From: a virus
Lineage: Duplodnaviria; Heunggongvirae; Uroviricota; Caudoviricetes
DNA: 64,000 nt
Direction: 5' to 3' (one strand)
Virus record (IMG/VR): IMGVR_UViG_3300037504_000227
Coordinates: 11,201-75,200 of that record
Part shown: one piece after another, positions 35,476 through 51,524 of the stretch
How positions within the stretch are numbered: the stretch's first letter is position 1
Layout of the letters: each line of letters starts with the position of its first letter
Made by a program: the position numbers and the translations under genes
The notes under the pieces: generated by a model
Told to the model about the DNA's origin: nothing
The model's database searches: none
Seen by the model: the letters and a program-made list of their open reading frames with translations, nothing else

Positions 35476-36198
35476 TTGGGTGAGGGGGGAACAGTGATTA
35501 TAGCGTTTGATTTGGAGATCACAACACCTATCCCTGAAGGTGATGACTGGCAGGATCTTCGCCCTCTGGGAATCTCTTGTGCTGCTACTCACACATCACA
35601 GGGAGAAACCATCGTTTGGCATGATAACTTCAGCCCGCGAATGTCTAAGCGCGAAGTGGACGAGATAGCTAAATACCTCTACTGGGAGTGGCGCGAGGGA
35701 GCACAGATCGTTACTTGGAATGGTCTTGGATTCGACTTCGATGTAATGCATGAAGAGTGCCGGTGGTGGAAGTCCAGTCTGCGGTTCATGGCTTGGAACC
35801 ATATTGACCCCGGATTCCAGATGCTTTGTGAGAAAGGGTTTATGGTAGGCCTAGATACGGCAGCCAAGGGAATGGGGCTTCACGGCAAGACAGAAGGTAT
35901 GTCTGGCAAAGACGCCCCTGTGATGTGGGCAGAGGGGCGAAATCAACAGGAGAAAGTGTTAGAATACGTTGCTCAAGACGCCGTCACGACCCTAGAGGTC
36001 TACGAGGCAATCCTGCGACGCGGGAGTCTGAGTTGGATCAGCAGGTCAGGGAGAGCAAATAAGTGGCGTCCAGAGTTCAAGAATGGGCGTATGCTGACTG
36101 CAAAAGAGTGTATGCATATCCCTGAGCCTGATACGTCGTGGATGTCAGACCCTTGGCCTAGAAAGAAATTCTATGGATGGCTAGATCCTCTCAAGTAA
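35476..36198 (+). CDS. DEDDy-type 3'-5' exonuclease (DnaQ/RNase T-like)
   Basis: Exo I AFDLEI, Exo II VTWNGLGFDFDVM, Exo III YVAQDAVTTLEVY. Confidence 0.6.
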   Translation: MGEGGTVIIAFDLEITTPIPEGDDWQDLRPLGISCAATHTSQGETIVWHDNFSPRMSKREVDEIAKYLYWEWREGAQIVTWNGLGFDFDVMHEECRWWKSSLRFMAWNHIDPGFQMLCEKGFMVGLDTAAKGMGLHGKTEGMSGKDAPVMWAEGRNQQEKVLEYVAQDAVTTLEVYEAILRRGSLSWISRSGRANKWRPEFKNGRMLTAKECMHIPEPDTSWMSDPWPRKKFYGWLDPLK

Positions 36199-37224
36199 GC
36201 TAATCGCCCTATCCAGGTACGAATGACTCTCCACAGCTTTCCTGAGCATCCTTCCTCTCTCGATTCGCTCTTCCTCTTTGGGAAGCCAATAATGGATTAG
36301 CTCATTCAGCTCCTTGTCTGTGGAGAACGTTGGCACAAGATCGCCAAACACAGTCTCTAGTTCAGGTCGCCCATCCTCAGATAGCATAAATGCCCCACAC
36401 GCTGCGATCTCATACACCCTCGGAGAAATAGATTCTGCCTCAGTGACTTTTTCCCCGCCTTTGTAGTCCACACTTTGACGATTAAAGTTAAGGACAATCT
36501 TCGCTCCATTGTAATGCATCGCCGCCTCTGGGTTGGGTACCATCGCTGCCTTGTAGTGCTCGGCCAGTGGATGGTCATAGTCGAATGGGTAATGACCGAT
36601 TAACGTTAAGTCAATCCCCTCCCAATCCACGCCCTCAAGAAGCTTAATCCGCTCAGGCCACCCAGATCCAATAAAACAGACATCGCTCTTGTATTTGTTA
36701 GAAACAATCATTGGGTGATGGACTTCTTGGTGCCATCCTGTAGGCTGATATGGCACACCCATCTTCCTGGCGCTTGCCAAGTCATTGCTAAATGGATAAT
36801 CAGCAACAGTGGAAACGTGAGCCAGCAGATTGTCTCGATATGGGCACTCTGTCATTATCAGTACAGTTGGGATATTCAGCCTGCGCCATACGTTCCAGGC
36901 ACGTCTATGGATTTGTGTTCCATCAATGACGACGATAAGATCAGGGAACTCTGCCAAGGACACCAACGCAACCTCGCCAGATGCACGTTCGAGAGCCTTA
37001 ATTTTAAGCTCGTTGTTGATCTCGTTGCCCTCGAATAGAGCACGGTATCTTAGCGTCTCATGCCAGCGTGTGACGTAGCTGTTGTACTCGATTACGTTGG
37101 TTCTAATCCCGATTCTGCGGAAGGCGTCGATGTATCCAGACGCAACATCATTTGGACCTGTGGACGATGCCGCTGTGACAACAGTGATGTGCCTAAATCC
37201 AACCGTACTCTGGGCTAATTCCAT
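36181..37224 (-). CDS. glycosyltransferase (GT-B, CgeB/DUF3880-like C-terminus)
   Basis: C-terminal GAFMLSEDGRPELETVFG...ERIERGRMLRKAVESHSY. Confidence 0.5.
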   Translation of the reverse strand: MELAQSTVGFRHITVVTAASSTGPNDVASGYIDAFRRIGIRTNVIEYNSYVTRWHETLRYRALFEGNEINNELKIKALERASGEVALVSLAEFPDLIVVIDGTQIHRRAWNVWRRLNIPTVLIMTECPYRDNLLAHVSTVADYPFSNDLASARKMGVPYQPTGWHQEVHHPMIVSNKYKSDVCFIGSGWPERIKLLEGVDWEGIDLTLIGHYPFDYDHPLAEHYKAAMVPNPEAAMHYNGAKIVLNFNRQSVDYKGGEKVTEAESISPRVYEIAACGAFMLSEDGRPELETVFGDLVPTFSTDKELNELIHYWLPKEEERIERGRMLRKAVESHSYLDRAISLLERI

Positions 37225-37948
37225 TTAGCTCCTCGAACTTTCTTTTGTTTCGTTGTTTCTCTCGTATCCACTGTTCATAGTCCTCTTCTGACTTCTCCCA
37301 AGCGTACTGATGGTACTGATGGATGGGTCGCACAGAGGAGTCGAATGCGCACTTGCATCCTTCCAGGAAGCATCTATACGCAAAGTCTATGTCCTCATAC
37401 CCATAGAATCCATCGTAGTCTGGACGAAGCCTGACTTTCTTTGCGGTCTCCATTGGGACACTGATCGAGTGCCCTGACATATACTGCCAACGCAAAACGA
37501 TAGGGGTTTTGTCGGGATTGAATCTGCGTTTCCAGAAGTTGTCGGCAATTGCATATTCCCCATCTGATTGTTGGAGATACATTGGATTGCTGACCATCCA
37601 GGGTCCATCATCTCTCTCGTGCCATTTGATGTGACTCTCGATCCAATCAACAGGGAAAATCATATCATCCTGTGTCATTAGGCACACGTCGCCTTCTTGC
37701 ATATCTAGGGCCATGTTGTTGTGTGTGGCACGTCCGTGGAGTTCAGGGCAATCGCAGACATCAACTTTAAGATCAAACGGGGGATCTGGGATCTCGTTTA
37801 GCACCCAACTGGCAATCTTGCCATCACGATGAACTATTACCAGTGCAACCTCAAAGTCTTTTACTGTTTGGTGGTATAGAGATCCGAAGCACTTCTTGAA
37901 GAGTTCAGCCTTCCAGTCTGCAGCGGCTAAGTTGATAGAGACTCGCAT
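37193..37948 (-). CDS. glycosyltransferase-like (GT-A fold); start placed at internal Met MRVSINL
   Basis: QDDMIF DxD-like motif; first 41 codons of the track ORF overlap the upstream gene. Confidence 0.45.
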   Translation of the reverse strand: MRVSINLAAADWKAELFKKCFGSLYHQTVKDFEVALVIVHRDGKIASWVLNEIPDPPFDLKVDVCDCPELHGRATHNNMALDMQEGDVCLMTQDDMIFPVDWIESHIKWHERDDGPWMVSNPMYLQQSDGEYAIADNFWKRRFNPDKTPIVLRWQYMSGHSISVPMETAKKVRLRPDYDGFYGYEDIDFAYRCFLEGCKCAFDSSVRPIHQYHQYAWEKSEEDYEQWIREKQRNKRKFEELNGISPEYGWI

Positions 37949-38576
37949 ACACCCTCGCCCAGTCGTAGAATGTCCATAGGGACAATGTGCTTTTCTCAGG
38001 GGGGCGATACGGAATGTCCACAGTGTCAATCGTCCCCTCCCACTTGACAAGCATCTCAATCTGAAATGCATGTGGACTCTTGGAGATTATACCACTGTCA
38101 GGTAGTTTGTCAAGTTTGTATGCGCGGAACCCGCACGTTGCATCGTCTAAGTCTACTCCGAGGAGCGACACAGCCAAGCTGGCGACATTCGATATGATTC
38201 TGCGGATTCCTTTCCCGTAGAACCTTCTTTGCCCAATGACAAGATCGGCATCTTTGTCAAGCAACTCCACCTCGTATGGCATGAAGTTGTCGCCGCAGTC
38301 CATTGTGATCCCAATCTCATATCCTAGCCTTTTTGCAGTTTGGAGGCCCAGCATATACTTCAAGGGGATGTACTGCCACTTGGCGCGTGGCATACGCAAA
38401 ACAATAGCGCCCATCTCTTCTGCCAAATCTGCTGTGGCATCCGAACTATCATCAATAATAATGGGGTGATAACCTTGCGGAATCTGTGCAAGAAATGGGC
38501 GTATGTTCTTTTCTTCGTTGTGCGTTGGAACAATAACAGCAGTCATAAGTTCAGAAACCGAGTCGTGCGGAGACAT
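37905..38576 (-). CDS. family 2 glycosyltransferase (DPM1-like)
   Basis: AVIVPTHNEEKNI ... IIIDDSSDATADL. Confidence 0.65.
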   Translation of the reverse strand: MSPHDSVSELMTAVIVPTHNEEKNIRPFLAQIPQGYHPIIIDDSSDATADLAEEMGAIVLRMPRAKWQYIPLKYMLGLQTAKRLGYEIGITMDCGDNFMPYEVELLDKDADLVIGQRRFYGKGIRRIISNVASLAVSLLGVDLDDATCGFRAYKLDKLPDSGIISKSPHAFQIEMLVKWEGTIDTVDIPYRPPEKSTLSLWTFYDWARVYASLYQLSRCRLEG

Positions 38577-38614: not shown

Positions 38615-39118
38615 CTATTCAGGTGGCTCCCCAGGAATACAAGCTGGGATCATATCTGCGTCCAAAATCTGCTTATACAGCTTGATCGCTACAGAGTACA
38701 AGCGCTTGCGATCATTCTTAAGAAACCTGATCTCTCTTTGCATTTCCTCGATAACCTTGTCTTGTTCTTGCTTATCTTGGTTGAGAGCATCAACTTCCCT
38801 GCGCAGATTGTCAATCGTGTCATCCCTTTCCTGAATCATCGCCCTTTGCTCTTGTATCAGAGCATCTTGTTCGTCCATCTTACCCTCTACTCTTTCGAGG
38901 CGTTCACAGACACGCTTGTACATCTCAAGCGCAGAGTCGCTTAACGCTTGTGCTGTTTCTGCCTCGACCTTATCAATTTGGGCTTGTGTCAAATCAGATT
39001 CTTGCTCTCTCTTGCGCCTAGACTTAATCCTCTTGATGATTGGTGGCAAAATAGCTGTTAGAATGCTTCCGGCAAGAGAGAAGATGGCAATAACGATAGC
39101 TGCATCAATGTTTTGCAT
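38615..39118 (-). CDS. membrane-anchored coiled-coil protein
   Basis: N-terminal TM then heptad-rich Q/E/R region. Confidence 0.4.
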   Translation of the reverse strand: MQNIDAAIVIAIFSLAGSILTAILPPIIKRIKSRRKREQESDLTQAQIDKVEAETAQALSDSALEMYKRVCERLERVEGKMDEQDALIQEQRAMIQERDDTIDNLRREVDALNQDKQEQDKVIEEMQREIRFLKNDRKRLYSVAIKLYKQILDADMIPACIPGEPPE

Positions 39119-39121
39119 TTG

Positions 39122-39592
39122 TCACTCCGATGATGTTCTAGTAATTTCAAACTCTACGTGCAGTGTTAGAGGTTGCATCAGGAAGTATGGACCCTCACCG
39201 TCTCGCAGAATCTCAAATACATCCCCTGCTGTTTCGATGTAGGAAATTACTACACTTGATGCACCGTCTAGTGTCGGGTATTTGTTAAATTCGTCAATCA
39301 ATGAGTCCACTGTATCTGATAAACTCAATAGTGTTACGCCATCATACTCATATCTTCTGTAGACTTCCAGTGTGTAAGCCCGCTCTGATGAATACTTGCC
39401 AAAGGGCGAGTTGAACGATCCTGTCTGCACTGGACCGTTGTTAAATGGGGTGACAGGCTTAATAATCAGTGCGTCGTCAACGCCGGCGTCCAGGATCTTG
39501 TAGTTTGCAATGCTGGTGTTTGTGCTACTAAACTCAGTTGTTTTCTGTGCGATTGTCTCAACCGCATTCATGGTCGTGCGCTGAAGTCCCAC
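39122..39592 (-). CDS. hypothetical protein (possible head-tail connector component)
   Basis: size and position only. Confidence 0.3.
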   Translation of the reverse strand: MGLQRTTMNAVETIAQKTTEFSSTNTSIANYKILDAGVDDALIIKPVTPFNNGPVQTGSFNSPFGKYSSERAYTLEVYRRYEYDGVTLLSLSDTVDSLIDEFNKYPTLDGASSVVISYIETAGDVFEILRDGEGPYFLMQPLTLHVEFEITRTSSE

Positions 39593-40173
39593 TATGCCCC
39601 CTCGATCAATCTGACAAACTCAATCTCAAGCTCTTTCGCCGCCTGTTCTAATGTAGTGTCTGTGGTTGGATCTGCAAGAGTCTCCTCTGGGAATGGGAAT
39701 CCCATCGTGCCACGTTCCCTCATTTGCCAGGATGACGTGCCAACCTTCTGAATGTTTGCCTGCACGGCATAAGCCGCCCTGCGTGTCCAACTAGTAGATC
39801 CTCCACGCTCTCCGCTCAATCCAAAATCTGTTTCCGCTTTTGTTCCCCCTAGCTTTACAGCAACCCAAGGCTCAAGATCCTCGATTGCCTCAGTTCTTGG
39901 CGGGCCGCCCTGCCAGATATTCTTAACCTTCGCTGGCGCAACAGATACACCTGCAACATTAGGCCCAATCACTACAGCGTCTTTTTCCACTCTTTTGCCA
40001 ACAGACGCTTGCATTTCGCCTGTATAGCGAATTGGCTCCAGCTTCCTAATCATTACACCACGAAGCTGATCGCCAATCCACGTCAACACAGCTTTCTTGC
40101 GCTTGTCAAACTGGTCAGGAATATCCTGCAATCTTCTTGCTAACGAATCAACTTGACTAGTATCAACTGGCAT
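39592..40173 (-). CDS. hypothetical protein (possible virion morphogenesis protein)
   Basis: ORF. Confidence 0.3.
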   Translation of the reverse strand: MPVDTSQVDSLARRLQDIPDQFDKRKKAVLTWIGDQLRGVMIRKLEPIRYTGEMQASVGKRVEKDAVVIGPNVAGVSVAPAKVKNIWQGGPPRTEAIEDLEPWVAVKLGGTKAETDFGLSGERGGSTSWTRRAAYAVQANIQKVGTSSWQMRERGTMGFPFPEETLADPTTDTTLEQAAKELEIEFVRLIEGA

Positions 40174-41174
40174 CAGTCGTTATCCCACATATCAGACTGG
40201 AATAGAGGCTGGATAATGTCGTCATCGTCCCTGTAGTCGTCTCGCTCATCCTCGTCAATATGACCAGCGGTAAGCCCAGCAGCCAGACTGCCTGTAGACG
40301 ATCTCTCAAGGCCGGCGTCAATCAGTGAATCAACCAATGCGCCGCCACTGCGAATCTCGTCTCTTAGGTAGTGATATAAACTTCTGAACGCACCAGTGCG
40401 AGTGTCTGCCCCTCCCTGAGCACGGAAGCCTGCTGATCTTTGTGTCAGTTCAGCCCCCATCATCACGCCCCATTTGGCGTAGGGTTTCAGGATATTGATT
40501 GCAGAGGTCGATGTTACAGGCGTATCAAACCCAGCGCCAGCAAGCCAAGTGTCTATTTCGTCTGAGATGTCTTCTTGAATATCCATAATCGCTGTTGCTG
40601 TAATGTTAGACGAGCTTGAGAACTGCCCTGTAGCTGTGGCGTGTTTAATCAGCGCCTCGACCTCTTGCAACTCAGAGTACACTGAGCGCCTACGACTGTA
40701 CAGTTTGAAGTCAAAGTCTGTGGCAGTTGCAATATTTGACCACGACCCATCATAAACTTCGCCCTCTCCATCCAGATAGGCTGGATCAGTTTGATCACAT
40801 CCCCACACAACTTCTGTTGTTCCATCTGTGTAGGTGTAGCCTGTGGACTTAAGCACAATATGATAATCCGTGGCAGATGTAAGGCTGGGTCTGTTGTCAG
40901 TGTAGAAGTCGAAATCAATATATCCATATGCTGATGCCAAAGATGATACCTTGACACCTTTTGATTTCCCGTTGGTAATCATTGCGTCTGGGTTTCCACT
41001 GTCGTCTGAGTAAATCTCAATCCACAATACGCCAGATGGTGATCCCGTAGTCTTAAGGTATAGTTGCACGCGCCCCACAGGTGCATCGCGATATAGGGAG
41101 AATCGTTGTCCCAGCCACCCGCTTGTGGTTAGGTCTTCTCCTGTGTTCTGAGTTGTATATTCTAGTAAAAGCAT
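40173..41174 (-). CDS. hypothetical protein, Ser/Thr/Asp-rich
   Basis: ORF. Confidence 0.35.
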   Translation of the reverse strand: MLLLEYTTQNTGEDLTTSGWLGQRFSLYRDAPVGRVQLYLKTTGSPSGVLWIEIYSDDSGNPDAMITNGKSKGVKVSSLASAYGYIDFDFYTDNRPSLTSATDYHIVLKSTGYTYTDGTTEVVWGCDQTDPAYLDGEGEVYDGSWSNIATATDFDFKLYSRRRSVYSELQEVEALIKHATATGQFSSSSNITATAIMDIQEDISDEIDTWLAGAGFDTPVTSTSAINILKPYAKWGVMMGAELTQRSAGFRAQGGADTRTGAFRSLYHYLRDEIRSGGALVDSLIDAGLERSSTGSLAAGLTAGHIDEDERDDYRDDDDIIQPLFQSDMWDND

Positions 41175-41205
41175 TCAATTTCTCCTGTAACCGCGATTAT
41201 GGGGG

Positions 41206-41805
41206 CTACGACGTGAACCGTAGAGCAATCTCCGGTTGGTTGCCACGCGCCAACAGCAAACCGACGAAAAACTGGACCAGTCGCTTGCCCCGGTCAATCT
41301 CAGTCGGCAGCGCCAACCCTAGCACGTTCTCGATTCGCGCTTCCCACGTCGCCCGCTCCTCTGCCGCCCACTGCTCGTCAACCAACGCGCCGATGACACT
41401 CTCGCCATCGACCTCCACGATCTCTGCCTGGCAGGCGATGTAGCAATCCGCGTCGCTGGCAATTACCGCAGCGTCCGCATCACTCCCCGCCCAGAACAGT
41501 AAAAACCAGTCGGGTGATAGAATCCCATCGACCAGTGGCAGATCGTGATCGTGCTCGGTGACGGAGTCGGGGAGCGTTAGCTGCACCCACTGTCCCGTTA
41601 CGTCAGTCACAAAGTGCTCGTGGAAAACGCCGATCTGATCGGAGTGCATCGCCAGTGAGCCGACCAGCAGGTGCGTGTGTTCGTTTCCGGCGGGGCCGCC
41701 CGTGATCCGCACGATGTCAAGCGGGTTGACGTAGCGCCCGCCAATACCATCCGGCAGCGAGGGTGTGCCGCCATCATCCCGCGCAAAAACCCATCCAGCC
41801 TTCAT
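41206..41805 (-). CDS. hypothetical protein in GC-rich island
   Basis: ORF; visibly higher GC than flanks. Confidence 0.35.
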   Translation of the reverse strand: MKAGWVFARDDGGTPSLPDGIGGRYVNPLDIVRITGGPAGNEHTHLLVGSLAMHSDQIGVFHEHFVTDVTGQWVQLTLPDSVTEHDHDLPLVDGILSPDWFLLFWAGSDADAAVIASDADCYIACQAEIVEVDGESVIGALVDEQWAAEERATWEARIENVLGLALPTEIDRGKRLVQFFVGLLLARGNQPEIALRFTS

Positions 41806-41830
41806 GTGTATTTCTCCAATTCGTTAAGCG

Positions 41831-42334
41831 TCATAGCCCCAACCTCGACCGACACGCAGTTGATAGCTGGTACGTTACAATGTCGGAAACCTCGCCCGCG
41901 GTAACAAGTCGTTCAAGCTCACCGCTGGTCTCTGTTTTAAAATTCGCAGCCAGTGCATAATTTAGTTTCACCGCTCCGCCAACGTAAGCGATGATGCTCT
42001 CATCGTCCAATTCAATGATAATTTCATCCCCGTCCGACACAGTTCCAGCCGCCGCGAATGACCGAGTGGTCAGTGCACCACCAACAATCTCCTCTAGCGA
42101 AAAAGCTCCGCTACTGTAGATTCGTATCTTCCACAGGTTGTTTGCATCCTGCCTGCGGACAAAAACCTCTATTCTGCCAGCCGTAGGTACCGCATCAACG
42201 GTAAATGTAATGTAAGCATCTGCTTCATGCGTAAATGAGTCTCCAGCAGATCTAGAGCCAGGCAACCTATCCGTTACTATACACCCGCCCAGCCCGAACA
42301 TGCCCGGTATGAATCCGCCACCGATGATCGCCAT
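41831..42334 (-). CDS. hypothetical protein in GC-rich island
   Basis: ORF. Confidence 0.35.
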   Translation of the reverse strand: MAIIGGGFIPGMFGLGGCIVTDRLPGSRSAGDSFTHEADAYITFTVDAVPTAGRIEVFVRRQDANNLWKIRIYSSGAFSLEEIVGGALTTRSFAAAGTVSDGDEIIIELDDESIIAYVGGAVKLNYALAANFKTETSGELERLVTAGEVSDIVTYQLSTACRSRLGL

Positions 42335-42358
42335 TACCCAGCCCCCATAATGCTATTA

Positions 42359-45632: not shown

Positions 45633-46422
45633 GCTGAATCTCCCTCAAATACGACCTGTAAATGTTCTCCTGAACCCACGGATGGATTGGGTACCTGTCT
45701 TCCCCAAGCCCGTGGAAGTGGTAGAAAACGATGGGGTATAACCCCTCAACCTTCCAACTCTCATAAGTGTACTGCATCTGGTTCCAGGGTGCTAAATTGC
45801 ACCCCAAGTGTTCTACAATATGCGCTCCATAATCTTGAGGCCAGTAATCCAAATATCCTTGCGTGCCACAGATTTGACCTCTTCCTGGCCCCGGACGCGG
45901 ATCTGTCCACACCAAGTCCCATTCGATACAGTTCTCAAGCCACTCGTTGACACAATCTCTCCCAATCTGTGTGTTCCTAAAATACGTCGCACCACCATTG
46001 TATACGCCTGTTCGTTTGGCTAAGTGCTGCAATTGGGGAGGGAATCTGTGGGGATGAACCGCAACGTCAGCAGTCTTGATCTCTCCAAAGAGAGGGCGAG
46101 GGCTATTGAAAAACCAAATGTCGCCATCGAGCATCATCACGCGCTCTAGGCCGACATCTAACAGAAACGCAGGGAAAGCAGGCTGGAACAACCAGATATA
46201 CTCTACATAGTTCCTGTTGTCTTTTTGCGCTGCGATCTCAGGCGTCTCAACCTTGTGCTTTGGTATGACGTGGATTCCGTGTCCCTGAGCAGCCTTATAG
46301 ACATCATCATCCAGCGCCAGCAAAAACAGTTCAGCTTTCGGCTCGTGCCTCCGTATCGACTGGAGCATTGTCAGCGTCCTCTTCCAATACCCCATGTCGC
46401 TCATCGTCGCAAACTGGTACAT
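45622..46422 (-). CDS. nucleotide-diphospho-sugar transferase-like protein (start uncertain)
   Basis: DGDIWFF motif; track ORF N-terminus overlaps upstream gene by ~270 nt, so internal Met chosen. Confidence 0.35.
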   Translation of the reverse strand: MYQFATMSDMGYWKRTLTMLQSIRRHEPKAELFLLALDDDVYKAAQGHGIHVIPKHKVETPEIAAQKDNRNYVEYIWLFQPAFPAFLLDVGLERVMMLDGDIWFFNSPRPLFGEIKTADVAVHPHRFPPQLQHLAKRTGVYNGGATYFRNTQIGRDCVNEWLENCIEWDLVWTDPRPGPGRGQICGTQGYLDYWPQDYGAHIVEHLGCNLAPWNQMQYTYESWKVEGLYPIVFYHFHGLGEDRYPIHPWVQENIYRSYLREIQRVE

Positions 46423-47107
46423 ACTTTTCAAACGTCTCCCTGCCAACATCCCATCCTTGCTTCGAGATGTCCTTGTTGGCTTTGTGTGTCTCAGATGTGT
46501 TGTCTGGTCGCTCGTGCCATAGATGGAATAGCCCTGGACCCTCAATCCACTTAATCTTGTGTGGCAGCCTGTTCGACAGGTCTGTGTCAATATATCCCCA
46601 TCCACTCATTCGTTCGTCGTACCCACCAGCGTCCATCAACGTTTCTCTGTGGAATACACCGAAGTCTCCAAGTGAAGTTAATGGGTGAAGCTCGCCATCC
46701 CAATCGTCAGAACAAAATCGCCAAGGGTTAATCTCTGCCATCGCCTCCGCACTTGCTTCCTCTGAAAGATCAAATCGCTGGTGGTAAAGTTGAGTTTCTG
46801 GCTCTAGTTCTGCATTAACTACAGCCAGCAGGTTAGGTGCCCATAGGCAATGACTGCACGCAATAATAATGTATTCTCCCTTGGCGTGCGCAATCCCGCA
46901 GTTGATCGCAGTCGGCTTGTGCCACTCATCAAGTGGCAAGTCAATAAACTTGACGCCCTTCTTTCTTTTCTTCTTGCCACTACAATTTACAACCAGAACT
47001 TCGTGCTCCGGGGCGTCAGCCTGCCATCCCAAACTTTTCAAGAGATAAGTAACACTCTTGTCCTTAAAGGCTGTCAATATGGTGAATTTCAATTCAAGGT
47101 CCTCCAA
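46331..47107 (-). CDS. glycosyltransferase-like protein
   Basis: ORF in glycan island. Confidence 0.35.
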   Translation of the reverse strand: MEDLELKFTILTAFKDKSVTYLLKSLGWQADAPEHEVLVVNCSGKKKRKKGVKFIDLPLDEWHKPTAINCGIAHAKGEYIIIACSHCLWAPNLLAVVNAELEPETQLYHQRFDLSEEASAEAMAEINPWRFCSDDWDGELHPLTSLGDFGVFHRETLMDAGGYDERMSGWGYIDTDLSNRLPHKIKWIEGPGLFHLWHERPDNTSETHKANKDISKQGWDVGRETFEKYVPVCDDERHGVLEEDADNAPVDTEARAES

Positions 47108-47949
47108 TGCACTGTGTCCAAATCGTACTTGCGCGTTACAGCTAAAGCTTCATCTTTGTAGATCTTCTTAAGCTTTTCCTCTAGGTCTGGATCTAGTGTC
47201 GGCTTCTTATTGCCAAATCTAGGCGACAGGATCTCCCTGTCAAACCAATACATCGCCTCGATAAATGTCTTGTCCGACTCGGATAGATTTATACCTTGCG
47301 TCACCCCGCCCCGACTGTATTCGCTATACCTGACGCTTTTTAGAATAAGCTCAAACCTTATTCGCTCTAATGAGTATATACCGGCTTGCGGACTGTTGCC
47401 GTTGAACTCTATGAACACACGACGCAAGGATAGAAGTTCATAGATCCTGTCCATTGCCTGTTGTGTGTCGTCAATCAACTCCTGGTGAGTCAGGACTAGG
47501 ACATCATCATAGCGACTTAATCCAGACGCATATCTTCCAAATTCTATCACTTCGTTAGACCTCGGCCAATGTTCCATCCTGTGCTCCAGAATGTCAGGCA
47601 GTCCTACGTTGATGGGTAGTACAGGTAGAAGCCCGGTCCTCATATAGTGATGATAGGCAGAGATCAAACGGTCGATGGGATCTCTCAAGACAGCAATCAG
47701 TTTTGCTCCCTGATTTAGCTGTTTGAATTCCCCGCATCGCCCACACAGCAACGTGGGGCGCTTGATGCCCACAACCTTTAGATGGTTTGGAACCTCGCCC
47801 TCGAACAATTGTTCTTTTGTTGTTGCCCAGTCTGCGTTCCCTGTTTCCCCTTTGGGCATCCATACGTCTGGGTGTGTTCTGAGCAGTCGGTGCAAGAACG
47901 TGGTGCCTGATCGCGGCGCTCCAATAATCGCAAAGTCTACAGCGCCCAC
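47089..47949 (-). CDS. PAPS-dependent sulfotransferase
   Basis: 5'-PSB loop IIGAPRSGTTFLHRLL and 3'-PB motif VLRDPIDRLISAY. Confidence 0.7.
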   Translation of the reverse strand: MGAVDFAIIGAPRSGTTFLHRLLRTHPDVWMPKGETGNADWATTKEQLFEGEVPNHLKVVGIKRPTLLCGRCGEFKQLNQGAKLIAVLRDPIDRLISAYHHYMRTGLLPVLPINVGLPDILEHRMEHWPRSNEVIEFGRYASGLSRYDDVLVLTHQELIDDTQQAMDRIYELLSLRRVFIEFNGNSPQAGIYSLERIRFELILKSVRYSEYSRGGVTQGINLSESDKTFIEAMYWFDREILSPRFGNKKPTLDPDLEEKLKKIYKDEALAVTRKYDLDTVHWRTLN

Positions 47950-48860
47950 AGAATCTCCTCTCGAAGCCGCTTCTCTAGTTGATCCATTCTTTTTCTGATT
48001 GGCTCTGGATGCGTGCCACTGAACTCATATGTTCTGCATTCTCCCCTGAACGATGGTCTGAAGTGGTGTGGTCCATCAAACTTATTTTCCACTTCCTGCC
48101 TTTGCCCCAGCATCCAAGGCTTGTAGACTTTGTGCCAGTATTGCGAGATGGTCTTATTGGGACGAATGCCCTCATAATACTTCGTTTTCCAATACATCTG
48201 CATTGGGAAGATCTTGCCATAGTGATACAGCCTAATGCCCTCCTGGGCTAGCTCTTCATATCCTAAATGACGATGCTCCCCCCAGGGCTTCATTGTCTGT
48301 GGGTTCAGTATAGTTGGGGGGCGGTGAGTGAGCCACTTAGCGCCGGGGTAAACACGCTGGATTCTGTGCATCTCAAACGCCTCCTCCCATCCTCCAAGAA
48401 CTGTGTTGAAGCTCCCGAAAAATGAATAGGGTTTGAATCCCACAGAGTCATAGTTATCTAGATGATCAAGGACGGACTCAACATCCTCTGCCTTGTATAC
48501 TTCATCTGAGTCAATGTGCCAGATGTGAGTTTCGTCCTCTAGGTACTTCATATACTCATTGCACATCTCATCTTTCTCAGGCCATTGTCCAGTGATAACT
48601 TTAATCTTGGACTCTGGGTCAGGGAAGTTGCGCAGGATTTGTAGGGTGTCATCGAATGACGACAGGAATCCCTCAGAAACCCAGTGCTGCACTGGACCCT
48701 CAACCACAATGATTTGATGGGCGTATGGGTAGATGCTTTCTAGGCACGGCTCAAGGATATGATCTCCGTTGAACACAATCATCCCGAATGAGACTTTAGC
48801 CATCGTCCACTTCTTTGGCGCAGAGCTGGTACTTTTCCACCTTAGTCGTGAAGTCTTCAA
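47937..48860 (-). CDS. glycosyltransferase-like protein
   Basis: FGMIVFNGDHILEPCLESIYPYAHQIIVVEG resembles GT-A N-terminus. Confidence 0.4.
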   Translation of the reverse strand: MKTSRLRWKSTSSAPKKWTMAKVSFGMIVFNGDHILEPCLESIYPYAHQIIVVEGPVQHWVSEGFLSSFDDTLQILRNFPDPESKIKVITGQWPEKDEMCNEYMKYLEDETHIWHIDSDEVYKAEDVESVLDHLDNYDSVGFKPYSFFGSFNTVLGGWEEAFEMHRIQRVYPGAKWLTHRPPTILNPQTMKPWGEHRHLGYEELAQEGIRLYHYGKIFPMQMYWKTKYYEGIRPNKTISQYWHKVYKPWMLGQRQEVENKFDGPHHFRPSFRGECRTYEFSGTHPEPIRKRMDQLEKRLREEILWAL

Positions 48861-49011
48861 TCATCTTTGCTGTGACAATGCGCTCTATTTTGATCATGCC
48901 AAATGTATCCGTGTCGAGCTCCAGCCTGACATGCGTCACATATTTAGAATCTATCCCAAGAGCCTCTAATAGCTCTGGTACAATCTCGTCGTGTATTGTA
49001 ATAACACTCAT
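48796..49011 (-). CDS. hypothetical small protein
   Basis: ORF. Confidence 0.3.
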   Translation of the reverse strand: MSVITIHDEIVPELLEALGIDSKYVTHVRLELDTDTFGMIKIERIVTAKMIEDFTTKVEKYQLCAKEVDDG

Positions 49012-49012
49012 T

Positions 49013-49573
49013 TCAAAACTCCCAATCGTATCTACGCATCAGCGTAAAGCATCCAATTCCATAATACCAAGGCTCTGTAGTTGGTTCCTCTCTCATTGCA
49101 ACCTCAATTGGCGCAGGGTTCCATTTGCCTTCGCGCTTTACATATCCTGTACTGTGTATGACCATATATCCCCACAGCAGCCTTGGCAGTCGATGTTTCC
49201 CATACACTCTGTGCATCGGGCTGAACACAGAATCTATTCCAACAGGGATAGTGAGGATCATTGTTGCCCCTGGCTCCATGATTTCCAAGAGCTTCCTCAT
49301 TCCCCATATGTCTCCTTCTGACAGGCTCGTCTCCACGTCGTATCGTCCCGCCAGTCCAAAGTGCTCGATACTAGACACATTTAGAACCCAGTTGAACTTA
49401 TCTGCTGGCATATAATTCAACAGGTCGCCGTGGACAAACTCAACCCCACGCGGAACATGGGGCTTCTGTAACCCAATGGCAGTCACATCATACCCACGAT
49501 CACTAGCGATTTTCGATAGGGGAGCGTTCTCTGACGGTCCGATGTCGAGTAGTCGCCCGCCGCCAGGGGGCAA
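49013..49573 (-). CDS. class I SAM-dependent methyltransferase (FkbM-like)
   Basis: RLLDIGPSEN motif I. Confidence 0.5.
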   Translation of the reverse strand: MPPGGGRLLDIGPSENAPLSKIASDRGYDVTAIGLQKPHVPRGVEFVHGDLLNYMPADKFNWVLNVSSIEHFGLAGRYDVETSLSEGDIWGMRKLLEIMEPGATMILTIPVGIDSVFSPMHRVYGKHRLPRLLWGYMVIHSTGYVKREGKWNPAPIEVAMREEPTTEPWYYGIGCFTLMRRYDWEF

Positions 49574-49623
49574 AACATTCTTGGCATACCCCCACTCTAC
49601 CAGCCTGTCTCCTGATAAGTCCC

Positions 49624-50340
49624 TTAGTTCAGAAATGGTATGTCTCCTGATTTGTACTGTTCCTCAGTGATAAGTGGGAACTCTGGACAAGCAAACGCGC
49701 CCCATCCCCACTTGCCAAACACCTTGTTGTTGTCCTCTCTCGCTTTGTACTGTGCTCTTAGATCATCCTGGTGCCTTGAGTGGTCAATGATTGTGTGCGG
49801 AGATGCCTCAACAGTGTACCCCTTACTCCATATGGTCAGTGACAGATGCGGGTCACCACCATAAGTCCGTGACAGATTGCCCCACCATCCACAGTGTTTC
49901 CCCAACCACTTCCGTGTCATCCCGAAGTTGGCATACGTTCTTCCACAGGCCTGCTTGATTACATATTGCCCTTTTGTCCCAGGCTCTTTGTGAGGGAATG
50001 CAAGCTGTCCTATGGTTGGGTTGTGGTCCAGATACGATGCATCTCGACACAGGTTACCGAACATCACGCAGTCGTCGTTGACGTGAACGACGTATTTCCC
50101 CCTGGCAATCCTGAACCCTGTGTTGAAGGCAGGGATTGCCCCGACCAACTTGCCCTGAGCAAACAGGTTTACATCGTCTTGCTTTTTGCACCATTCAAGC
50201 GTGTCATCCTCAGATCCCCCATCGACTACAACGATCTCGTATGGGGAGTACGCGATGCTTTCTCTAACGCTCTCTATACAAGGCTCAAGTAGCTCAAGCC
50301 TGTTGTATGTGGCAATGACGACAGAGATGCGAGGGTTCAC
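49624..50340 (-). CDS. family 2 glycosyltransferase
   Basis: ISVVIATYNRLELL...EIVVVDGGSEDDT. Confidence 0.7.
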   Translation of the reverse strand: MNPRISVVIATYNRLELLEPCIESVRESIAYSPYEIVVVDGGSEDDTLEWCKKQDDVNLFAQGKLVGAIPAFNTGFRIARGKYVVHVNDDCVMFGNLCRDASYLDHNPTIGQLAFPHKEPGTKGQYVIKQACGRTYANFGMTRKWLGKHCGWWGNLSRTYGGDPHLSLTIWSKGYTVEASPHTIIDHSRHQDDLRAQYKAREDNNKVFGKWGWGAFACPEFPLITEEQYKSGDIPFLN

Positions 50341-50540
50341 TGATCGCTTTCTGCGTTAGGATCTGTTGGGGGATTCTGTGCTGCCTGCGATCCAACTCTC
50401 AGGATGCGATTGATCTCTGCGCGAGCGCCCATATGCTGGTAATACTCTGCATTCTTTTGCTCGATCTCTTCCTCCAACTTCTTCATTGCGTTCTCGTGCT
50501 CTGTTTTCCAGAAAATCAACTGCTGTGCGTTAAGTGCCAT
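50337..50540 (-). CDS. hypothetical small coiled-coil protein
   Basis: ORF. Confidence 0.3.
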   Translation of the reverse strand: MALNAQQLIFWKTEHENAMKKLEEEIEQKNAEYYQHMGARAEINRILRVGSQAAQNPPTDPNAESDQ

Positions 50541-51208
50541 TAGCTACTCTCCTTTAGATATTTCTCCCACTGAATAATCGACCAATCCTTTACATCAAGC
50601 CAATCGCTCTCTGTAATCGGCTTGACAGACAAATGTCCACACTGAAGCCCTGTATCAATCCATATTTTCTCGTTAGCTTCCTCCCTGATCTTCAAACACA
50701 GCCTAACGTCACTCCCAACTACAGGCTCATCACCAAACGGCCCTAAGCGTGAATAAGGCGGCTCTAACTTCTCTAGCACAGTCCTATGAAGCAACAAGCA
50801 TCCGTGCCCCGTAGCGCCCGCCTCTACCAGTGCATTCTTGGGATAGTTAAACATCCTGGTCTTAGGCCAATGGTGAATTGGCTCCATCTGAAACGGAATA
50901 GGCCACGTGTGATCGCCACGACTAAAGTACATAGCAGAGACAACCTTCTTGTTGTGGCTTAGAAGCCTGTCCAATGCACCCCGCGGCACCTCCATATCCG
51001 TGTCTACAATCCACAACCACTCCGAGCCACTTTCCTCCAGGAAGTTGTTAATCAGCAATTCCCTAGCATACTCAGAGCGCATCCCCACCTTAGACCAGAT
51101 ACGTGACACTCTGGGATGCAGAACGATGTCAAACAATGTACTTGTGACGAATCGCGCTGCGATCAGTTCGGGGAATAGTAGGAGAAGATCAACCTTGCCA
51201 TCATCCAT
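50540..51208 (-). CDS. GT-A-fold glycosyltransferase-like protein
   Basis: WIVDTDMEV motif; paralogous to 42681-43367. Confidence 0.4.
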   Translation of the reverse strand: MDDGKVDLLLLFPELIAARFVTSTLFDIVLHPRVSRIWSKVGMRSEYARELLINNFLEESGSEWLWIVDTDMEVPRGALDRLLSHNKKVVSAMYFSRGDHTWPIPFQMEPIHHWPKTRMFNYPKNALVEAGATGHGCLLLHRTVLEKLEPPYSRLGPFGDEPVVGSDVRLCLKIREEANEKIWIDTGLQCGHLSVKPITESDWLDVKDWSIIQWEKYLKESS

Positions 51209-51524
51209 CTTTGCACTCCATCACTGCGTGGATTCTGTCTAGTTCTTTCTGCAATTCGTTGACCATCATCTTCGTCGCAGCAAACTCCTCGACACATCCC
51301 AGCACAGTGCTTAGATCAGTCTCTCTGACCCTGTATTCGAGCCTGTCTCTAGCCTCCCATATTGTTACGCCCTCCACAGCCTGGGCAAGCGAATTGAGCA
51401 CAGCGATTTCGTCGCCAGTCATCTCAACAATACAGTTTCCTTTAGGGGTTCTGCCAATCTCTTTCACTTTTGTCTCCTTTTGCAAATACAATTGCATTAT
51501 ACGACACGCTCGCAACATTGTCAA
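51201..51524 (-). CDS. hypothetical protein
   Basis: ORF; first gene of minus-strand island. Confidence 0.35.
   Translation of the reverse strand: MTMLRACRIMQLYLQKETKVKEIGRTPKGNCIVEMTGDEIAVLNSLAQAVEGVTIWEARDRLEYRVRETDLSTVLGCVEEFAATKMMVNELQKELDRIHAVMECKDG

What the first reader, a model, noticed from the sequence alone, without database searches (positions are those of the whole stretch)
36181..51524. ~15-kb phage-encoded glycan synthesis and modification island (glycosyltransferases, epimerases, methyltransferases, sulfotransferase)
A contiguous minus-strand block encodes at least 8 GT-A/GT-B glycosyltransferase-like proteins, two SDR nucleotide-sugar epimerase/dehydratases (one fused to a methyltransferase), two further class I methyltransferases, and a sulfotransferase with both PAPS-binding motifs. 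It sits between the tail and head modules. That is far more carbohydrate machinery than typical seroconversion cassettes carry. The combination of sulfation, O-methylation and multiple glycosyl transfers suggests a complex glycan decorating virion proteins or remodelling host surface polysaccharide. A PAPS-reductase-family protein (59788-60708) is encoded elsewhere.
Basis: partly seen in the sequence, partly recalled or inferred. Interest (0 to 1): 0.8.

Follow-up and report, generated by a model that had tools for sequence, protein, structure and literature searches.

The report
Phage virion-module sugar-coating gene island
An uncultivated tailed phage carries 13 sugar-building and sugar-modifying enzyme genes, including a sulfate-adding enzyme, woven in among its head-to-tail genes, and its relatives keep four of them in the same places, which suggests the phage coats its own particle with a complex sugar, though no experiment has shown this.

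Summary
Window 36181-51524 (minus strand) encodes 9 glycosyltransferase-like proteins, two SDR nucleotide-sugar enzymes (one GDP-L-fucose-synthase-like, one fused to a methyltransferase), one DUF268-type methyltransferase and one carbohydrate-type sulfotransferase. I found one further methyltransferase, not two. The block is not contiguous: seven non-enzyme genes (38615-42691; one confirmed as a virion protein by fold, one by a Pfam neck-protein match, the rest by position) split it.

Comparison with more than 20 related metagenomic phage contigs gives the main new result. Four GTs are a conserved core at fixed positions inside the capsid-to-tail module. The other nine enzymes form a hypervariable accessory cassette; the closest relative has about 25 kb there, with an amino-sugar pathway and at least six methyltransferases. 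More distant relatives lack all of them.

No enzyme has a membrane segment, and there is no flippase, polymerase or initiating transferase. No hydroxymethyl-pyrimidine enzyme for DNA glycosylation was found. The window's only two perfect sigma-70 promoters both lie in the island.

Best explanation (confidence about 0.5): cytoplasmic glycosylation of virion proteins, as in mycobacteriophages and chloroviruses, here with fucose-like, O-methyl and possibly sulfate groups. The PAPS-reductase-like gene is probably unrelated. Nothing has been tested experimentally.

The parts
51496..51524 (-). Perfect sigma-70 consensus promoter (TTGACA-N17-TATAAT) at the 5' edge of the island
   Evidence: It is one of only two perfect matches in the 64-kb window (0.02 expected by chance; 0 of 100 shuffles gave 2 or more). 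An AAAGGAGA Shine-Dalgarno and a GTG at 51466 follow it.
51201..51466 (-). Small first gene of the unit (about 88 aa, unknown function). Its stop overlaps the start of the next gene.
   Evidence: No Pfam or PHROG hit. The Logan gene caller starts it at 51497.
50540..51208 (-). GT-A-like glycosyltransferase (accessory, partly shared). Paralog of 42681-43367.
   Evidence: Pfam GT2 at E 1.8e-3. Paralogy at E 1.6e-16. Homologs at 52-57% identity lie just downstream of the capsid gene in L025, L028, L036 and L037.
49624..50340 (-). GT2 glycosyltransferase (accessory)
   Evidence: Pfam Glycos_transf_2 at E 2.3e-22. A 54%-identity homolog is in L025.
49013..49573 (-). DUF268-type class I methyltransferase (accessory)
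   Evidence: Pfam DUF268 at E 1.4e-13. A homolog is in L036.
47937..48803 (-). GT2 glycosyltransferase (accessory)
   Evidence: Pfam GT2 at E 1.3e-5. The Logan gene call is 288 aa. A 48%-identity homolog is in L025.
47089..47949 (-). PAPS-type carbohydrate sulfotransferase (accessory; found in no relative of this phage)
   Evidence: Sulfotransfer_3/_1 match; AF2 pLDDT 88.5; the nearest folds are heparan-sulfate 3-O/N-sulfotransferases; the closest homologs lie in cellular Wzx/Wzy polysaccharide loci. The PSB-loop Lys is an Arg.
46331..47107 (-). GT2-like glycosyltransferase (accessory)
   Evidence: Pfam Glyco_tranf_2_2 at 2.2e-6 and GT2 at 1.5e-5.
45622..46368 (-). Nucleotide-diphospho-sugar transferase (GT-A, PF03407) (accessory)
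   Evidence: Pfam at E 3.3e-7. Homologs at 34-35% identity are in L025 and L036. Start taken from the Logan gene call.
44682..45632 (-). Extended SDR, GDP-L-fucose-synthase-like (a GDP-4-keto-6-deoxymannose epimerase/reductase type)
   Evidence: Pfam Epimerase at 2.4e-48. NCBIfam GDPFucSynFcl at 1.9e-45, below the equivalog cut-off. Best PDB hits are GDP-L-fucose synthases at E 1.5e-31, with the S-x-C-V-Y, YxxxK and SHVIPALIR motifs kept.
43388..44704 (-). Fusion of a class I SAM methyltransferase (N-terminal) and a short SDR epimerase/dehydratase (C-terminal)
   Evidence: Pfam Methyltransf_11 at 2.1e-9 and Epimerase at 4.5e-16. The SDR half is 53% identical to a stand-alone gene next to the CgeB-like gene in L022.
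42681..43367 (-). Core GT-A-like glycosyltransferase (phrog_1574). It overlaps the start of the next gene.
   Evidence: PHROG hits and paralogy to the weak-GT2 ORF. Homologs at 33-40% identity lie 1-2 kb downstream of the capsid gene in 9 related loci.
38615..42691 (-). Seven non-enzyme genes, partly shown to be virion genes, that interrupt the island. They are: a 110-aa S/T-rich protein, 167-aa and 199-aa proteins unique to this phage, a 333-aa jelly-roll plus helical protein, an HK97-gp10-like neck protein (39592-40173), a 156-aa probable tail terminator, and a 167-aa protein with an N-terminal TM segment and a coiled coil.
   Evidence: The order 333 aa, gp10-like, 156 aa is conserved in all relatives. 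The N-terminal domain of the 333-aa protein matches domains of phage baseplate, capsid and minor-tail proteins.
37905..38576 (-). Core GT2 glycosylransferase 'a' (distant DPM1/AglJ-like similarity, no membrane segment)
   Evidence: Pfam GT2 at 2.5e-8. NCBIfam hits are far below cut-off. Conserved in L005, L007, L014, L022 and L026.
38086..38113 (-). Second perfect sigma-70 consensus promoter (extended -10), inside the 3' part of GT2a and upstream of GT2b
37193..37948 (-). Core GT2 glycosyltransferase 'b'
   Evidence: Pfam GT2 at 9.5e-5. The Logan gene call is 251 aa. Homologs are 38-55% identical.
36181..37224 (-). Core CgeB-like glycosyltransferase (PF13524). It is the most conserved enzyme of the set.
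   Evidence: Pfam at 4.7e-19. It is 39-59% identical in every relative whose sequence reaches this position. 27 other metagenomic clusters match; the nearest named cellular protein is a Cohnella CgeB-family protein at 29%.

Best explanation
The island is a phage-encoded cytoplasmic glycosylation system tied to virion assembly.

Proposed mechanism (inferred, except where marked as shown):
1. A core of four soluble glycosyltransferases primes and extends a glycan on one or more virion surface proteins in the cytoplasm of the infected cell. The core is the GT-A-like gene just downstream of the capsid gene, plus the GT2a/GT2b/CgeB-like trio between the tail-terminator-like and tail-tube-like genes.
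2. Candidate acceptors are the 333-aa jelly-roll protein, the small S/T-rich proteins, and the tail-tube-like protein whose gene directly follows the CgeB-like gene in relatives.
3. A swappable accessory cassette sets the glycan's composition. In this phage it has five more GTs, a GDP-L-fucose-synthase-like SDR, a methyltransferase-SDR fusion, a DUF268 methyltransferase and a carbohydrate-type sulfotransferase. That predicts 6-deoxyhexose (fucose-like) residues, O-methyl groups and, if the Arg-variant sulfotransferase is active, sulfate esters.
4. The host would supply the precursors (GDP-4-keto-6-deoxymannose or GDP-mannose, UDP-sugars, SAM, PAPS).

Shown here: the enzyme families, the gene order, the conservation pattern, the absence of membrane or export components, and the promoters. 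Inferred: the acceptor, the glycan chemistry and the biological role (surface masking or adhesion).
For: 1. The enzyme families are confirmed.
2. The genes are co-oriented, tightly packed (overlapping stops and starts) and interleaved with neck and other virion genes. They sit behind one of the window's only two perfect sigma-70 promoters.
3. Lineage conservation. The CgeB-like gene (with GT2a and GT2b in most cases) follows the 333-aa / gp10-like / 156-aa genes in all 7 independent related contigs that reach that position. The GT-A-like core gene lies 1-2 kb after the capsid gene in 9 loci. More distant relatives have a compact capsid-to-tail module with none of the island's GTs (L042, MCP 49%, by BLAST against the window proteins) or no annotated GT (RDJL Phi1; Laroyevirus Edmundo).
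4. The accessory set is hypervariable. The closest relative (MCP 76% identical) has about 25 kb there, with an NTP-transferase, an FdtA-like protein, a DegT aminotransferase and at least six methyltransferases. Others carry CTP-transferase or Laminin_G_3 proteins.
5. No island enzyme has a membrane segment, and there is no Wzx, Wzy, initiating transferase or Gtr-type protein. This points to a cytoplasmic acceptor.
6. Precedents. The CgeB family primes O-glycosylation of a spore-crust protein, with a GT2 proposed as elongator (PMC13577073). Cluster O mycobacteriophages carry an O-methyltransferase and three GT genes inside the virion operon (PMC4351075), and virion glycans are reported for Che8 (PMC11256854 citing Freeman 2023). 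Chlorovirus PBCV-1 encodes GTs, methyltransferases and GMD/GMER for its capsid glycan (PMC9614988).
Against: - No glycoprotein evidence exists. The phage is uncultivated and its host is unknown.
- The capsid protein shows no S/T-rich extension specific to GT-bearing relatives, so no acceptor is identified.
- Perfect host-type promoters fit early or moron genes as well as virion genes. The second one drives only GT2b and the CgeB-like gene.
- An integrase is present, so expression in a lysogen, and hence host remodelling, is conceivable.
- The sulfotransferase has Arg in place of the PSB-loop Lys.
- No GDP-mannose 4,6-dehydratase or PAPS-synthesis gene was seen in the window. About 46.7 kb of the 110.7-kb source contig was not available.
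- Cyanophage and other marine phage genomes also carry GT and epimerase genes of unknown role.
Confidence: 0.5

Rival explanations
1. Host-surface remodelling. The enzymes change the host's LPS, EPS, capsule or S-layer glycan, either to block superinfection or re-adsorption of progeny or as a lysogenic-conversion trait. They would act on host lipid-linked or cytoplasmic intermediates and rely on the host's own flippase, polymerase and export machinery.
For: - The closest sulfotransferase homologs (33-37% identity) lie in cellular Wzx/Wzy polysaccharide loci.
- The SDR and GT-A-like proteins have relatives in cyanophage genomes, where they are usually treated as auxiliary metabolic genes.
- An integrase is present.
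- The strong host-type promoters could act without phage factors.
- GT2a is faintly similar to polyprenyl-phosphate hexose transferases.
Against: - The island has no membrane protein, flippase, polymerase, ligase or initiating transferase.
- Four GTs keep fixed positions inside the virion module across divergent relatives, unlike att-proximal conversion cassettes.
- The first promoter also drives the neck genes.
- The GT2a similarities are far below family cut-offs (36.8 bits against a cut-off of 375).
Confidence: 0.2
2. Another cytoplasmic acceptor. The GTs modify host proteins (for example flagellin, pilin or S-layer precursors), or make a soluble or lipid glycoconjugate that the phage uses during infection, rather than modifying virion proteins.
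For: The enzymes are soluble and nothing identifies an acceptor. The CgeB and GT2 families act on varied protein and non-protein acceptors.
Against: The same conserved embedding in the virion module. Laminin_G_3 and fibre-adaptor-like virion proteins co-vary with the enzymes in the same region in relatives.
Confidence: 0.12
3. DNA hypermodification. Some or all of the GTs glycosylate modified bases in phage DNA to evade restriction, as in T-even phages and the metavirome gene clusters described by Pyle et al.
For: GT-A and GT-B genes for DNA glycosylation can lie near structural genes (10.1101/2023.12.21.572611). This phage encodes a DNA methyltransferase, a PAPS-reductase-like protein and, just beyond the window, a Mom-family protein.
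Against: - No hydroxymethyl-pyrimidine source was found in the window ORFs scanned. The thymidylate synthase is ThyX (Thy1, E 1.4e-62), the methyltransferase is N6/N4-type, and there is no TET/JBP hit.
- Nine GTs plus SDRs, O-methyltransferases and a carbohydrate sulfotransferase far exceed the mono- to trisaccharide DNA systems described.
- The unseen 46.7 kb of the contig could still hold such genes.
Confidence: 0.05

Closest known systems
[quoted passage not shown]
   Same: Phage-encoded soluble GTs, with an O-methyltransferase, sit inside or beside the virion structural operon. The enzymes are not virion components. Glycans on capsid proteins are reported for Che8 (PMC4351075; PMC11256854 citing Freeman et al. 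2023).
   Different: - Those cassettes have 2-4 genes; this island has 13 enzymes.
- They have no nucleotide-sugar SDR, no sulfotransferase and no described core-plus-hypervariable architecture.
- Their hosts are Actinobacteria.
- No sequence relationship was detected: tblastn of the CgeB-like protein and the sulfotransferase found nothing in 50,697 GenBank phage records.
- The primary paper (PMC10527164) could not be read here.
Chlorovirus PBCV-1 capsid-glycan machinery (A064R, A111/114R, A061L methyltransferase, A118R GMD, A295L GMER)
   Same: Virus-encoded cytoplasmic GTs, sugar O-methyltransferases and a GDP-L-fucose synthase build a virus-specific glycan on a capsid protein, and variants change antigenic type (PMC9614988).
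   Different: It is a eukaryotic giant virus with N-linked glycans and dispersed genes. That review never mentions sulfation or a sulfotransferase (0 occurrences). No homology beyond family level was tested.
Bacillus subtilis spore-crust glycosylation (CgeB with CgeD/GT2)
   Same: A CgeB-family (PF13524) enzyme and a GT2 enzyme decorate a proteinaceous shell assembled inside a cytoplasm. CgeB is proposed to prime Thr112 of CgeA (PMC13577073). The phage core holds a CgeB-like gene next to two GT2 genes.
   Different: It is a cellular sporulation system. The nearest named cellular CgeB-family protein is only 29% identical. The acceptor CgeA has no counterpart identified here.
Cellular Wzx/Wzy-dependent polysaccharide loci carrying sulfotransferases
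   Same: The sulfotransferase family is the same (33-37% identity), and these loci also combine GTs and methyltransferases.
   Different: The cellular loci carry a Wzx flippase, a Wzy polymerase and a pyruvyl transferase. The phage island has no membrane or export component.
Phage seroconversion cassettes (GtrABC-type) and phage DNA glycosylation clusters
   Same: Both are phage-encoded glycosyl transfer systems.
   Different: Gtr-type cassettes need the membrane proteins GtrA and GtrC and lie near the attachment site (established knowledge). DNA systems need a 5-hydroxymethyl-pyrimidine-forming enzyme. Neither feature is present here.

Membership tests
Virus-encoded virion-protein glycosylation system (mycobacteriophage / chlorovirus type) | Virus-encoded glycosyltransferases co-located and co-oriented with virion structural genes | tested here: met
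   Gene map. Positions are conserved in relatives.
Virus-encoded virion-protein glycosylation system (mycobacteriophage / chlorovirus type) | Glycan covalently attached to capsid, tail or other virion proteins | not testable with these tools
   This needs virions or co-expression plus mass spectrometry. No S/T-rich capsid extension was seen.
Virus-encoded virion-protein glycosylation system (mycobacteriophage / chlorovirus type) | Soluble cytoplasmic enzymes with no dependence on lipid-linked export machinery | tested here: met
   The maximum 19-residue hydropathy of every enzyme is below 1.8. There are no Wzx, Wzy, PGT or Gtr hits.
Virus-encoded virion-protein glycosylation system (mycobacteriophage / chlorovirus type) | Sequence homology to the characterised mycobacteriophage enzymes | tested here: not met
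   tblastn of the CgeB-like protein and the sulfotransferase against GenBank phages gave no match. The GT-A-like protein hits only cyanophage, pelagiphage and uncultured phage records.
PAPS-dependent carbohydrate sulfotransferase | Sulfotransferase fold | tested here: met
   Pfam Sulfotransfer_3/_1. AF2 pLDDT 88.5. Foldseek TM about 0.6 to heparan-sulfate 3-OST/NDST and to 3rnl.
PAPS-dependent carbohydrate sulfotransferase | 5'-phosphosulfate-binding loop with the catalytic Lys | tested here: inconclusive
   The loop is present but reads GAPRSGTT against the family consensus GAQKxxST, so Arg replaces Lys. One other family member (P0026) also has Arg.
PAPS-dependent carbohydrate sulfotransferase | 3'-phosphate-binding motif (R...S) | tested here: met
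   RDPIDRLISAY; R89 and S97 are invariant in 25 sequences.
PAPS-dependent carbohydrate sulfotransferase | Carbohydrate (not tyrosine or small-molecule) acceptor | tested here: inconclusive
   The best folds are carbohydrate sulfotransferases (TM 0.6), against tyrosylprotein and cytosolic SULTs (TM about 0.35). The closest homologs lie in polysaccharide loci. No activity data exist.
GDP-L-fucose synthase (GMER/Fcl) | Extended SDR with the Ser/Cys, Tyr-x3-Lys and His catalytic motifs | tested here: met
   Alignment to PDB GDP-L-fucose synthases (E 1.5e-31) keeps S-x-C-V-Y, YGWAK and SHVIPALIR. Assigning these motifs to catalytic residues rests on my knowledge of E. coli GMER.
GDP-L-fucose synthase (GMER/Fcl) | Score above the curated equivalog cut-off | tested here: not met
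   NF047922 scored 155.6 bits against a cut-off of 500. File it as GMER-like, not as Fcl.
CgeB family glycosyltransferase (PF13524) | Score above Pfam's gathering threshold | tested here: met
   69.2 bits against a threshold of 25.
Wzx/Wzy-type surface polysaccharide locus or Gtr-type seroconversion cassette | Flippase, polymerase, initiating phosphoglycosyl transferase, or GtrA/GtrC membrane proteins | tested here: not met
   No such Pfam or NCBIfam hit, and no membrane segment in any enzyme.
DNA-glycosylating hypermodification gene cluster | An enzyme that makes 5-hydroxymethyl-pyrimidine (ThyA-like hydroxymethylase, or C5-methyltransferase plus TET/JBP dioxygenase) | tested here: not met
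   Only ThyX (Thy1) and an N6/N4 methyltransferase are present. No TET/JBP hit in the window ORFs scanned. The rest of the 110.7-kb contig was not seen.

The most novel reading that the evidence does not exclude
A widespread but uncultivated lineage of roughly 60-120-kb siphovirus-like phages builds a 'glycocalyx' on its virions from a conserved four-GT core and a serotype-like, horizontally swapped accessory locus, analogous to O-antigen loci. This member adds sulfate esters. That would be the first virus-encoded glycan sulfation and the first sulfated phage particle.
Probability: 0.3. Interest if true: 0.85.

Novelty: new variant of a known kind. Interest (0 to 1): 0.66.

Why it matters
Virion glycosylation by phage-encoded enzymes is so far documented mainly in actinobacteriophages, with 2-4 genes, and it alters antibody recognition there. 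If this island works as proposed, it has four consequences:
- Phage self-glycosylation extends to an unrelated environmental lineage.
- Phages can carry O-antigen-like variable glycan loci inside the structural module.
- The particle gains negatively charged sulfated, methylated deoxy-sugar chemistry, which bears on adsorption to sulfated exopolysaccharides or mucus, colloidal behaviour and evasion of host or grazer recognition.
- The island offers a compact, soluble, membrane-independent set of enzymes for protein glycoengineering.

It also warns against scoring such genes automatically as 'auxiliary metabolic genes'.

Tried and rejected
- Nucleotide search of the island and tblastn of the sulfotransferase and CgeB-like proteins against GenBank phages gave no match.
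- Single-protein scans of IMG/VR with the sulfotransferase and the capsid protein found nothing. Alignment-based scans were needed.
- The window is not in IMG/VR. No prophage relative was found in 185,579 species genomes, so the host stays unknown. Planctomycetota names among the sulfotransferase homologs are not host evidence.
- Sequence searches of the 333-aa protein and the GT-A-like core protein against PDB were negative.
- A capsid alignment looking for an S/T-rich acceptor extension specific to GT-bearing phages found none.
- jackhmmer among the related loci found no relatives of the 167-aa, 199-aa, TM/coiled-coil or 88-aa proteins, the sulfotransferase, the fucose-synthase-like SDR or the GT2_2.
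- The 110-aa protein is not similar to the Gp77-like adaptor at the equivalent position in L022.
- The perfect promoters are not conserved at the matching positions in relatives.
- Overall counts of promoter-like and terminator-like sites are at chance level. Only the two perfect matches are significant.
- I rejected the PAPS-reductase link to sulfation.
- Literature searches for a phage-encoded carbohydrate sulfotransferase found only unrelated mentions.
- Freeman et al. 2023 (PMC10527164) is not held, and only a stub of the Jabs preprint is held.

Full report
**What is in the sequence**

The finding's interval (36181-51524) is an unbroken run of minus-strand ORFs with negative GC skew. In order of transcription the genes are:

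| Coordinates | Product | Evidence |
|---|---|---|
| 51201-51466 | small protein of unknown function | no hit |
| 50540-51208 | weak GT2 | E 1.8e-3 |
| 49624-50340 | GT2 | E 2.3e-22 |
| 49013-49573 | DUF268-type methyltransferase | E 1.4e-13 |
| 47937-48803 | GT2 | E 1.3e-5 |
| 47089-47949 | sulfotransferase | E 1.5e-14 |
| 46331-47107 | GT2-like | E 2.2e-6 |
| 45622-46368 | PF03407 nucleotide-diphospho-sugar transferase | E 3.3e-7 |
| 44682-45632 | extended SDR | E 2.4e-48 |
| 43388-44704 | methyltransferase-SDR fusion | E 2.1e-9 / 4.5e-16 |
| 42681-43367 | GT-A-like protein | phrog_1574; paralog of 50540-51208 at E 1.6e-16 |
| 38615-42691 | seven non-enzyme genes | see below |
| 37905-38576 | GT2a | E 2.5e-8 |
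| 37193-37948 | GT2b | E 9.5e-5 |
| 36181-37224 | CgeB-like GT (PF13524) | E 4.7e-19 |

That makes 9 GT-like proteins, 2 SDRs, 2 methyltransferase domains (one of them fused) and 1 sulfotransferase, in about 10.9 kb of enzyme coding.

The block is also not contiguous. About 4.1 kb in the middle encodes an HK97-gp10-like neck protein, a probable tail terminator and other non-enzyme genes. These include a 333-aa protein whose AlphaFold model (pLDDT 78) has an N-terminal jelly-roll. That jelly-roll resembles domains of phage baseplate, capsid-accessory and minor-tail proteins.

Three contigs from an independent run (Logan SRR12689834) tile window 31.06-64 kb (and continue ~0.6 kb past its end) with the same gene order, so the arrangement is not an assembly artefact.

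**What kind of phage it is**

The window comes from a 110,716-bp JGI metagenome contig. It carries:
- an integrase, an FtsK-like protein, a replication module and ThyX;
- a tape-measure protein and distal tail genes (20740-28719);
- a capsid protein (56961-57932), a scaffold protein and a ChaB-domain head protein.

The capsid protein is about 35% identical to those of Arthrobacter Laroyeviruses, Pseudomonas KPP23/RSP and Roseobacter RDJL phages. No GenBank phage matches the island at the nucleotide level.

Plus-strand cassettes cut the virion module into segments at 31.5-36.2 kb, 51.5-57.0 kb and beyond 59.7 kb. The island together with the neck genes forms one of those segments.

**Comparative result (the main new evidence)**

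Homologs of the 333-aa protein (42-57% identity) and of the capsid protein (49-76%) led to more than 20 related contigs. I compared these gene by gene with the window.

*Core genes.* Every one of the 7 independent contigs that reaches the position after the 333-aa / gp10-like / 156-aa genes has the CgeB-like gene there (39-59% identity). Most also have GT2a and GT2b. In relatives these are followed directly by a 128-132-aa tail-tube-like gene, the tail chaperones and the tape measure. A homolog of the GT-A-like gene 42681-43367 lies 1-2 kb downstream of the capsid gene in 9 loci. Its paralog 50540-51208 has homologs in 4 loci.

*Outgroups.* More distant relatives have compact capsid-to-tail modules with none of the island's GTs (L042, capsid 49% identical, by BLAST against the window proteins) or no annotated GT (RDJL Phi1; Laroyevirus Edmundo).

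*Accessory genes.* The remaining enzymes vary from contig to contig.
- The closest relative (capsid 76% identical) has about 25 kb between the capsid and 333-aa genes. It shares three or four GTs with the window. Otherwise it carries an NTP-transferase, an FdtA-like protein, a DegT aminotransferase, at least six methyltransferases, a GT1 and a Laminin_G_3 protein.
- Other relatives carry CTP/NTP-transferases, fused GT2-GT1 proteins, Methyltransf_24, Laminin_G_3 and fibre-adaptor-like (Gp77 / BppU_N) proteins.
- The sulfotransferase, the fucose-synthase-like SDR and the GT2_2 have no counterpart in any relative.

So the system has a conserved four-GT core fixed in the virion module and a swappable accessory cassette.

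**Clues to the acceptor**

No island enzyme has a predicted membrane segment; the highest 19-residue hydropathy is below 1.8. Only the non-enzyme 167-aa coiled-coil protein has one. There is no flippase, polymerase, ligase, initiating phosphoglycosyl transferase or Gtr-type protein. This argues for a cytoplasmic acceptor.

For DNA glycosylation the required hydroxymethyl-pyrimidine source is missing. The thymidylate synthase is ThyX and the DNA methyltransferase is N6/N4-type. None of the window ORFs scanned hits TET/JBP. About 46.7 kb of the contig was not available.

The name-giving member of PF13524, B. subtilis CgeB, is proposed to prime O-glycosylation of the spore-crust protein CgeA, with the GT2 CgeD as elongator (PMC13577073). 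That is a close functional analogy for the conserved CgeB-like plus GT2 set here: decoration of a protein shell assembled inside a cytoplasm.

I did not identify the acceptor. The capsid protein has no S/T-rich extension specific to GT-bearing phages. Three candidates remain, on weak grounds:
- the 333-aa protein, which always co-occurs with the CgeB-like gene and has an S/T-rich linker;
- the 110-aa protein, which is 25% Ser+Thr and overlaps the core GT-A-like gene;
- the tail-tube-like protein, which has a conserved S/T-rich loop and, in relatives, lies directly after the CgeB-like gene.

**Predicted chemistry (inferred)**

*Deoxyhexose.* The SDR at 44682-45632 is GDP-L-fucose-synthase-like. 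Its best solved relatives match at E 1.5e-31, and the S-x-C-V-Y, YxxxK and SHVIPALIR motifs are kept. It scores below NCBIfam's equivalog cut-off, 155.6 bits against 500. No GDP-mannose 4,6-dehydratase was seen, so the host would have to supply the 4-keto intermediate.

*Sulfate.* The sulfotransferase model (pLDDT 88.5) is closest to heparan-sulfate 3-O- and N-sulfotransferases (TM about 0.6). Tyrosylprotein and cytosolic sulfotransferases match less well (TM about 0.35). Its nearest homologs (33-37% identity) sit in cellular Wzx/Wzy polysaccharide loci. This supports a carbohydrate acceptor and a cellular origin for the gene.

One caveat applies. The 5'-PSB loop reads GAPRSGTT where the family has GAQKxxST, so the catalytic Lys is an Arg. 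From memory, Lys-to-Arg variants of some plant sulfotransferases keep partial activity, but I did not check this. Activity is unproven.

*PAPS reductase.* The PAPS_reduct protein at 59788-60708 should not be linked to sulfation. The family consumes PAPS (established biochemistry). A gene annotated PAPs reductase also sits next to a ParB-like gene in Laroyevirus Edmundo, whose capsid-to-tail region has no annotated GT.

**Expression**

The only two perfect TTGACA-N16/17-TATAAT promoters in the 64-kb window are both on the minus strand and both in the island (0.02 expected by chance; 0 of 100 shuffles gave 2 or more).
- One lies at the island's 5' edge (51524-51496). An AAAGGAGA Shine-Dalgarno and a GTG follow it.
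- The other lies at 38113-38086, upstream of GT2b and the CgeB-like gene.

Genes overlap or abut throughout. The island and the neck genes are therefore probably one strongly expressed unit with an internal booster. The promoters are not conserved as perfect matches in relatives. They could equally fit phage-independent expression, which keeps the host-remodelling rival alive.

**Verdict**

The best explanation is cytoplasmic glycosylation of virion proteins by a conserved core plus a variable accessory cassette (confidence about 0.5). The rivals are:
- host-surface remodelling (0.2);
- another cytoplasmic acceptor (0.12);
- DNA glycosylation (0.05).

The remainder is unassigned.

The closest known systems are the mycobacteriophage virion-glycosylation cassettes (PMC4351075; PMC11256854 citing Freeman 2023) and the chlorovirus capsid-glycan machinery (PMC9614988). 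Compared with these, the island is a new variant. It is much larger, sits in an unrelated phage lineage, has a core/accessory architecture and carries a sulfotransferase. I found no description of a phage-encoded carbohydrate sulfotransferase in the searchable literature; that is an absence in the held library, not proof of absence. Nothing here is experimental evidence of a glycan on any molecule.

Noticed in passing
window 29468-31220 (-): A group I intron (Rfam RF00028, 81.4 bits, E 3.9e-19, 29855-30180) splits the tail-tube-like gene after about 7 codons. Exon 1 is 'MAYKTGL' at about 30131-30111, and exon 2 is 29842-29468. Relatives have an uninterrupted 128-132-aa gene that is 39-48% identical. 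An HNH/EndoVII-like ORF (30141-31220) lies immediately upstream, and an int-alpA RNA Rfam hit is at 31222-31288.
   Followed up: partly
window 7059-8906 (+): A Ro60 ortholog (TROVE + Ro60 vWA, E 1e-60) at 7287-8906 is preceded by a 120-nt tRNA-like Rfam hit at 7059-7178 that ARAGORN does not call. This may be a phage-encoded Ro60 / Y-RNA (YrlA-like) pair.
   Followed up: no
window 38086-38113 and 51496-51524 (-): These are the only two perfect sigma-70 consensus promoters in the 64-kb window. Both are in the island (0.02 expected by chance). Together with the AAAGGAGA Shine-Dalgarno, they suggest a host with canonical sigma-70 and SD usage.
   Followed up: partly
window 51480-51812 (+): A small divergent ORF with a weak winged-helix Trans_reg_C hit (E 2.3e-4) starts back-to-back with, and overlapping, the island promoter. 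It may be a regulator of the island.
   Followed up: no
window 61941-63013 (+): An array of 9-11 tRNA genes (Trp, Pro, Asn, Gly, Ile, Met, Asp, Gln, Glu and others) lies on the strand opposite to the head genes.
   Followed up: no
window 31542-36198, 51480-56964 and 59515-64000 (+): Three plus-strand cassettes split the minus-strand virion module. Their contents include a Band_7/SPFH protein, an RNA ligase, an Acb5-family hit (34238-34558, precomputed Pfam), a DNA-polymerase-exonuclease-like protein, an N6/N4 DNA methyltransferase, an HNH protein, the PAPS-reductase-like gene and the tRNAs. The independent Logan contigs break at about 42.3 kb and 52.2 kb, close to the edges of the accessory cassette. 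This could reflect population variants, but I did not test it.
   Followed up: partly
window 47089-47949 (-), residues 10-17: The PSB loop of the sulfotransferase has Pro-Arg where 23 of 24 homologs have Gln-Lys. One homolog, P0026, has Gln-Arg.
   Followed up: yes
L025 + L024 + L005 (IMGVR_UViG_3300017613_001755, 64,083 bp): The closest relative has about 25 kb between its capsid gene and its 333-aa gene. That stretch includes FdtA-like and DegT aminotransferase genes (a 3-amino-3,6-dideoxyhexose-type pathway), an NTP-transferase and at least six methyltransferases. About 5.5 kb of it (18966-24468) was not read apart from a 4.3-kb piece.
   Followed up: partly
window 2182-4638 (+): An FtsK/SpoIIIE-like ATPase (E 6e-86) lies next to a tyrosine integrase, which is unusual for a siphovirus-like genome. 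The source contig (110.7 kb) may be a large temperate phage or may include non-phage flanks.
   Followed up: no
window 58350-59663 (-) and L007 5052-6803: A ChaB-domain protein sits at the position between portal and scaffold, where a MuF-like or protease gene would be expected. It is conserved across the lineage at 36-61% identity.
   Followed up: no
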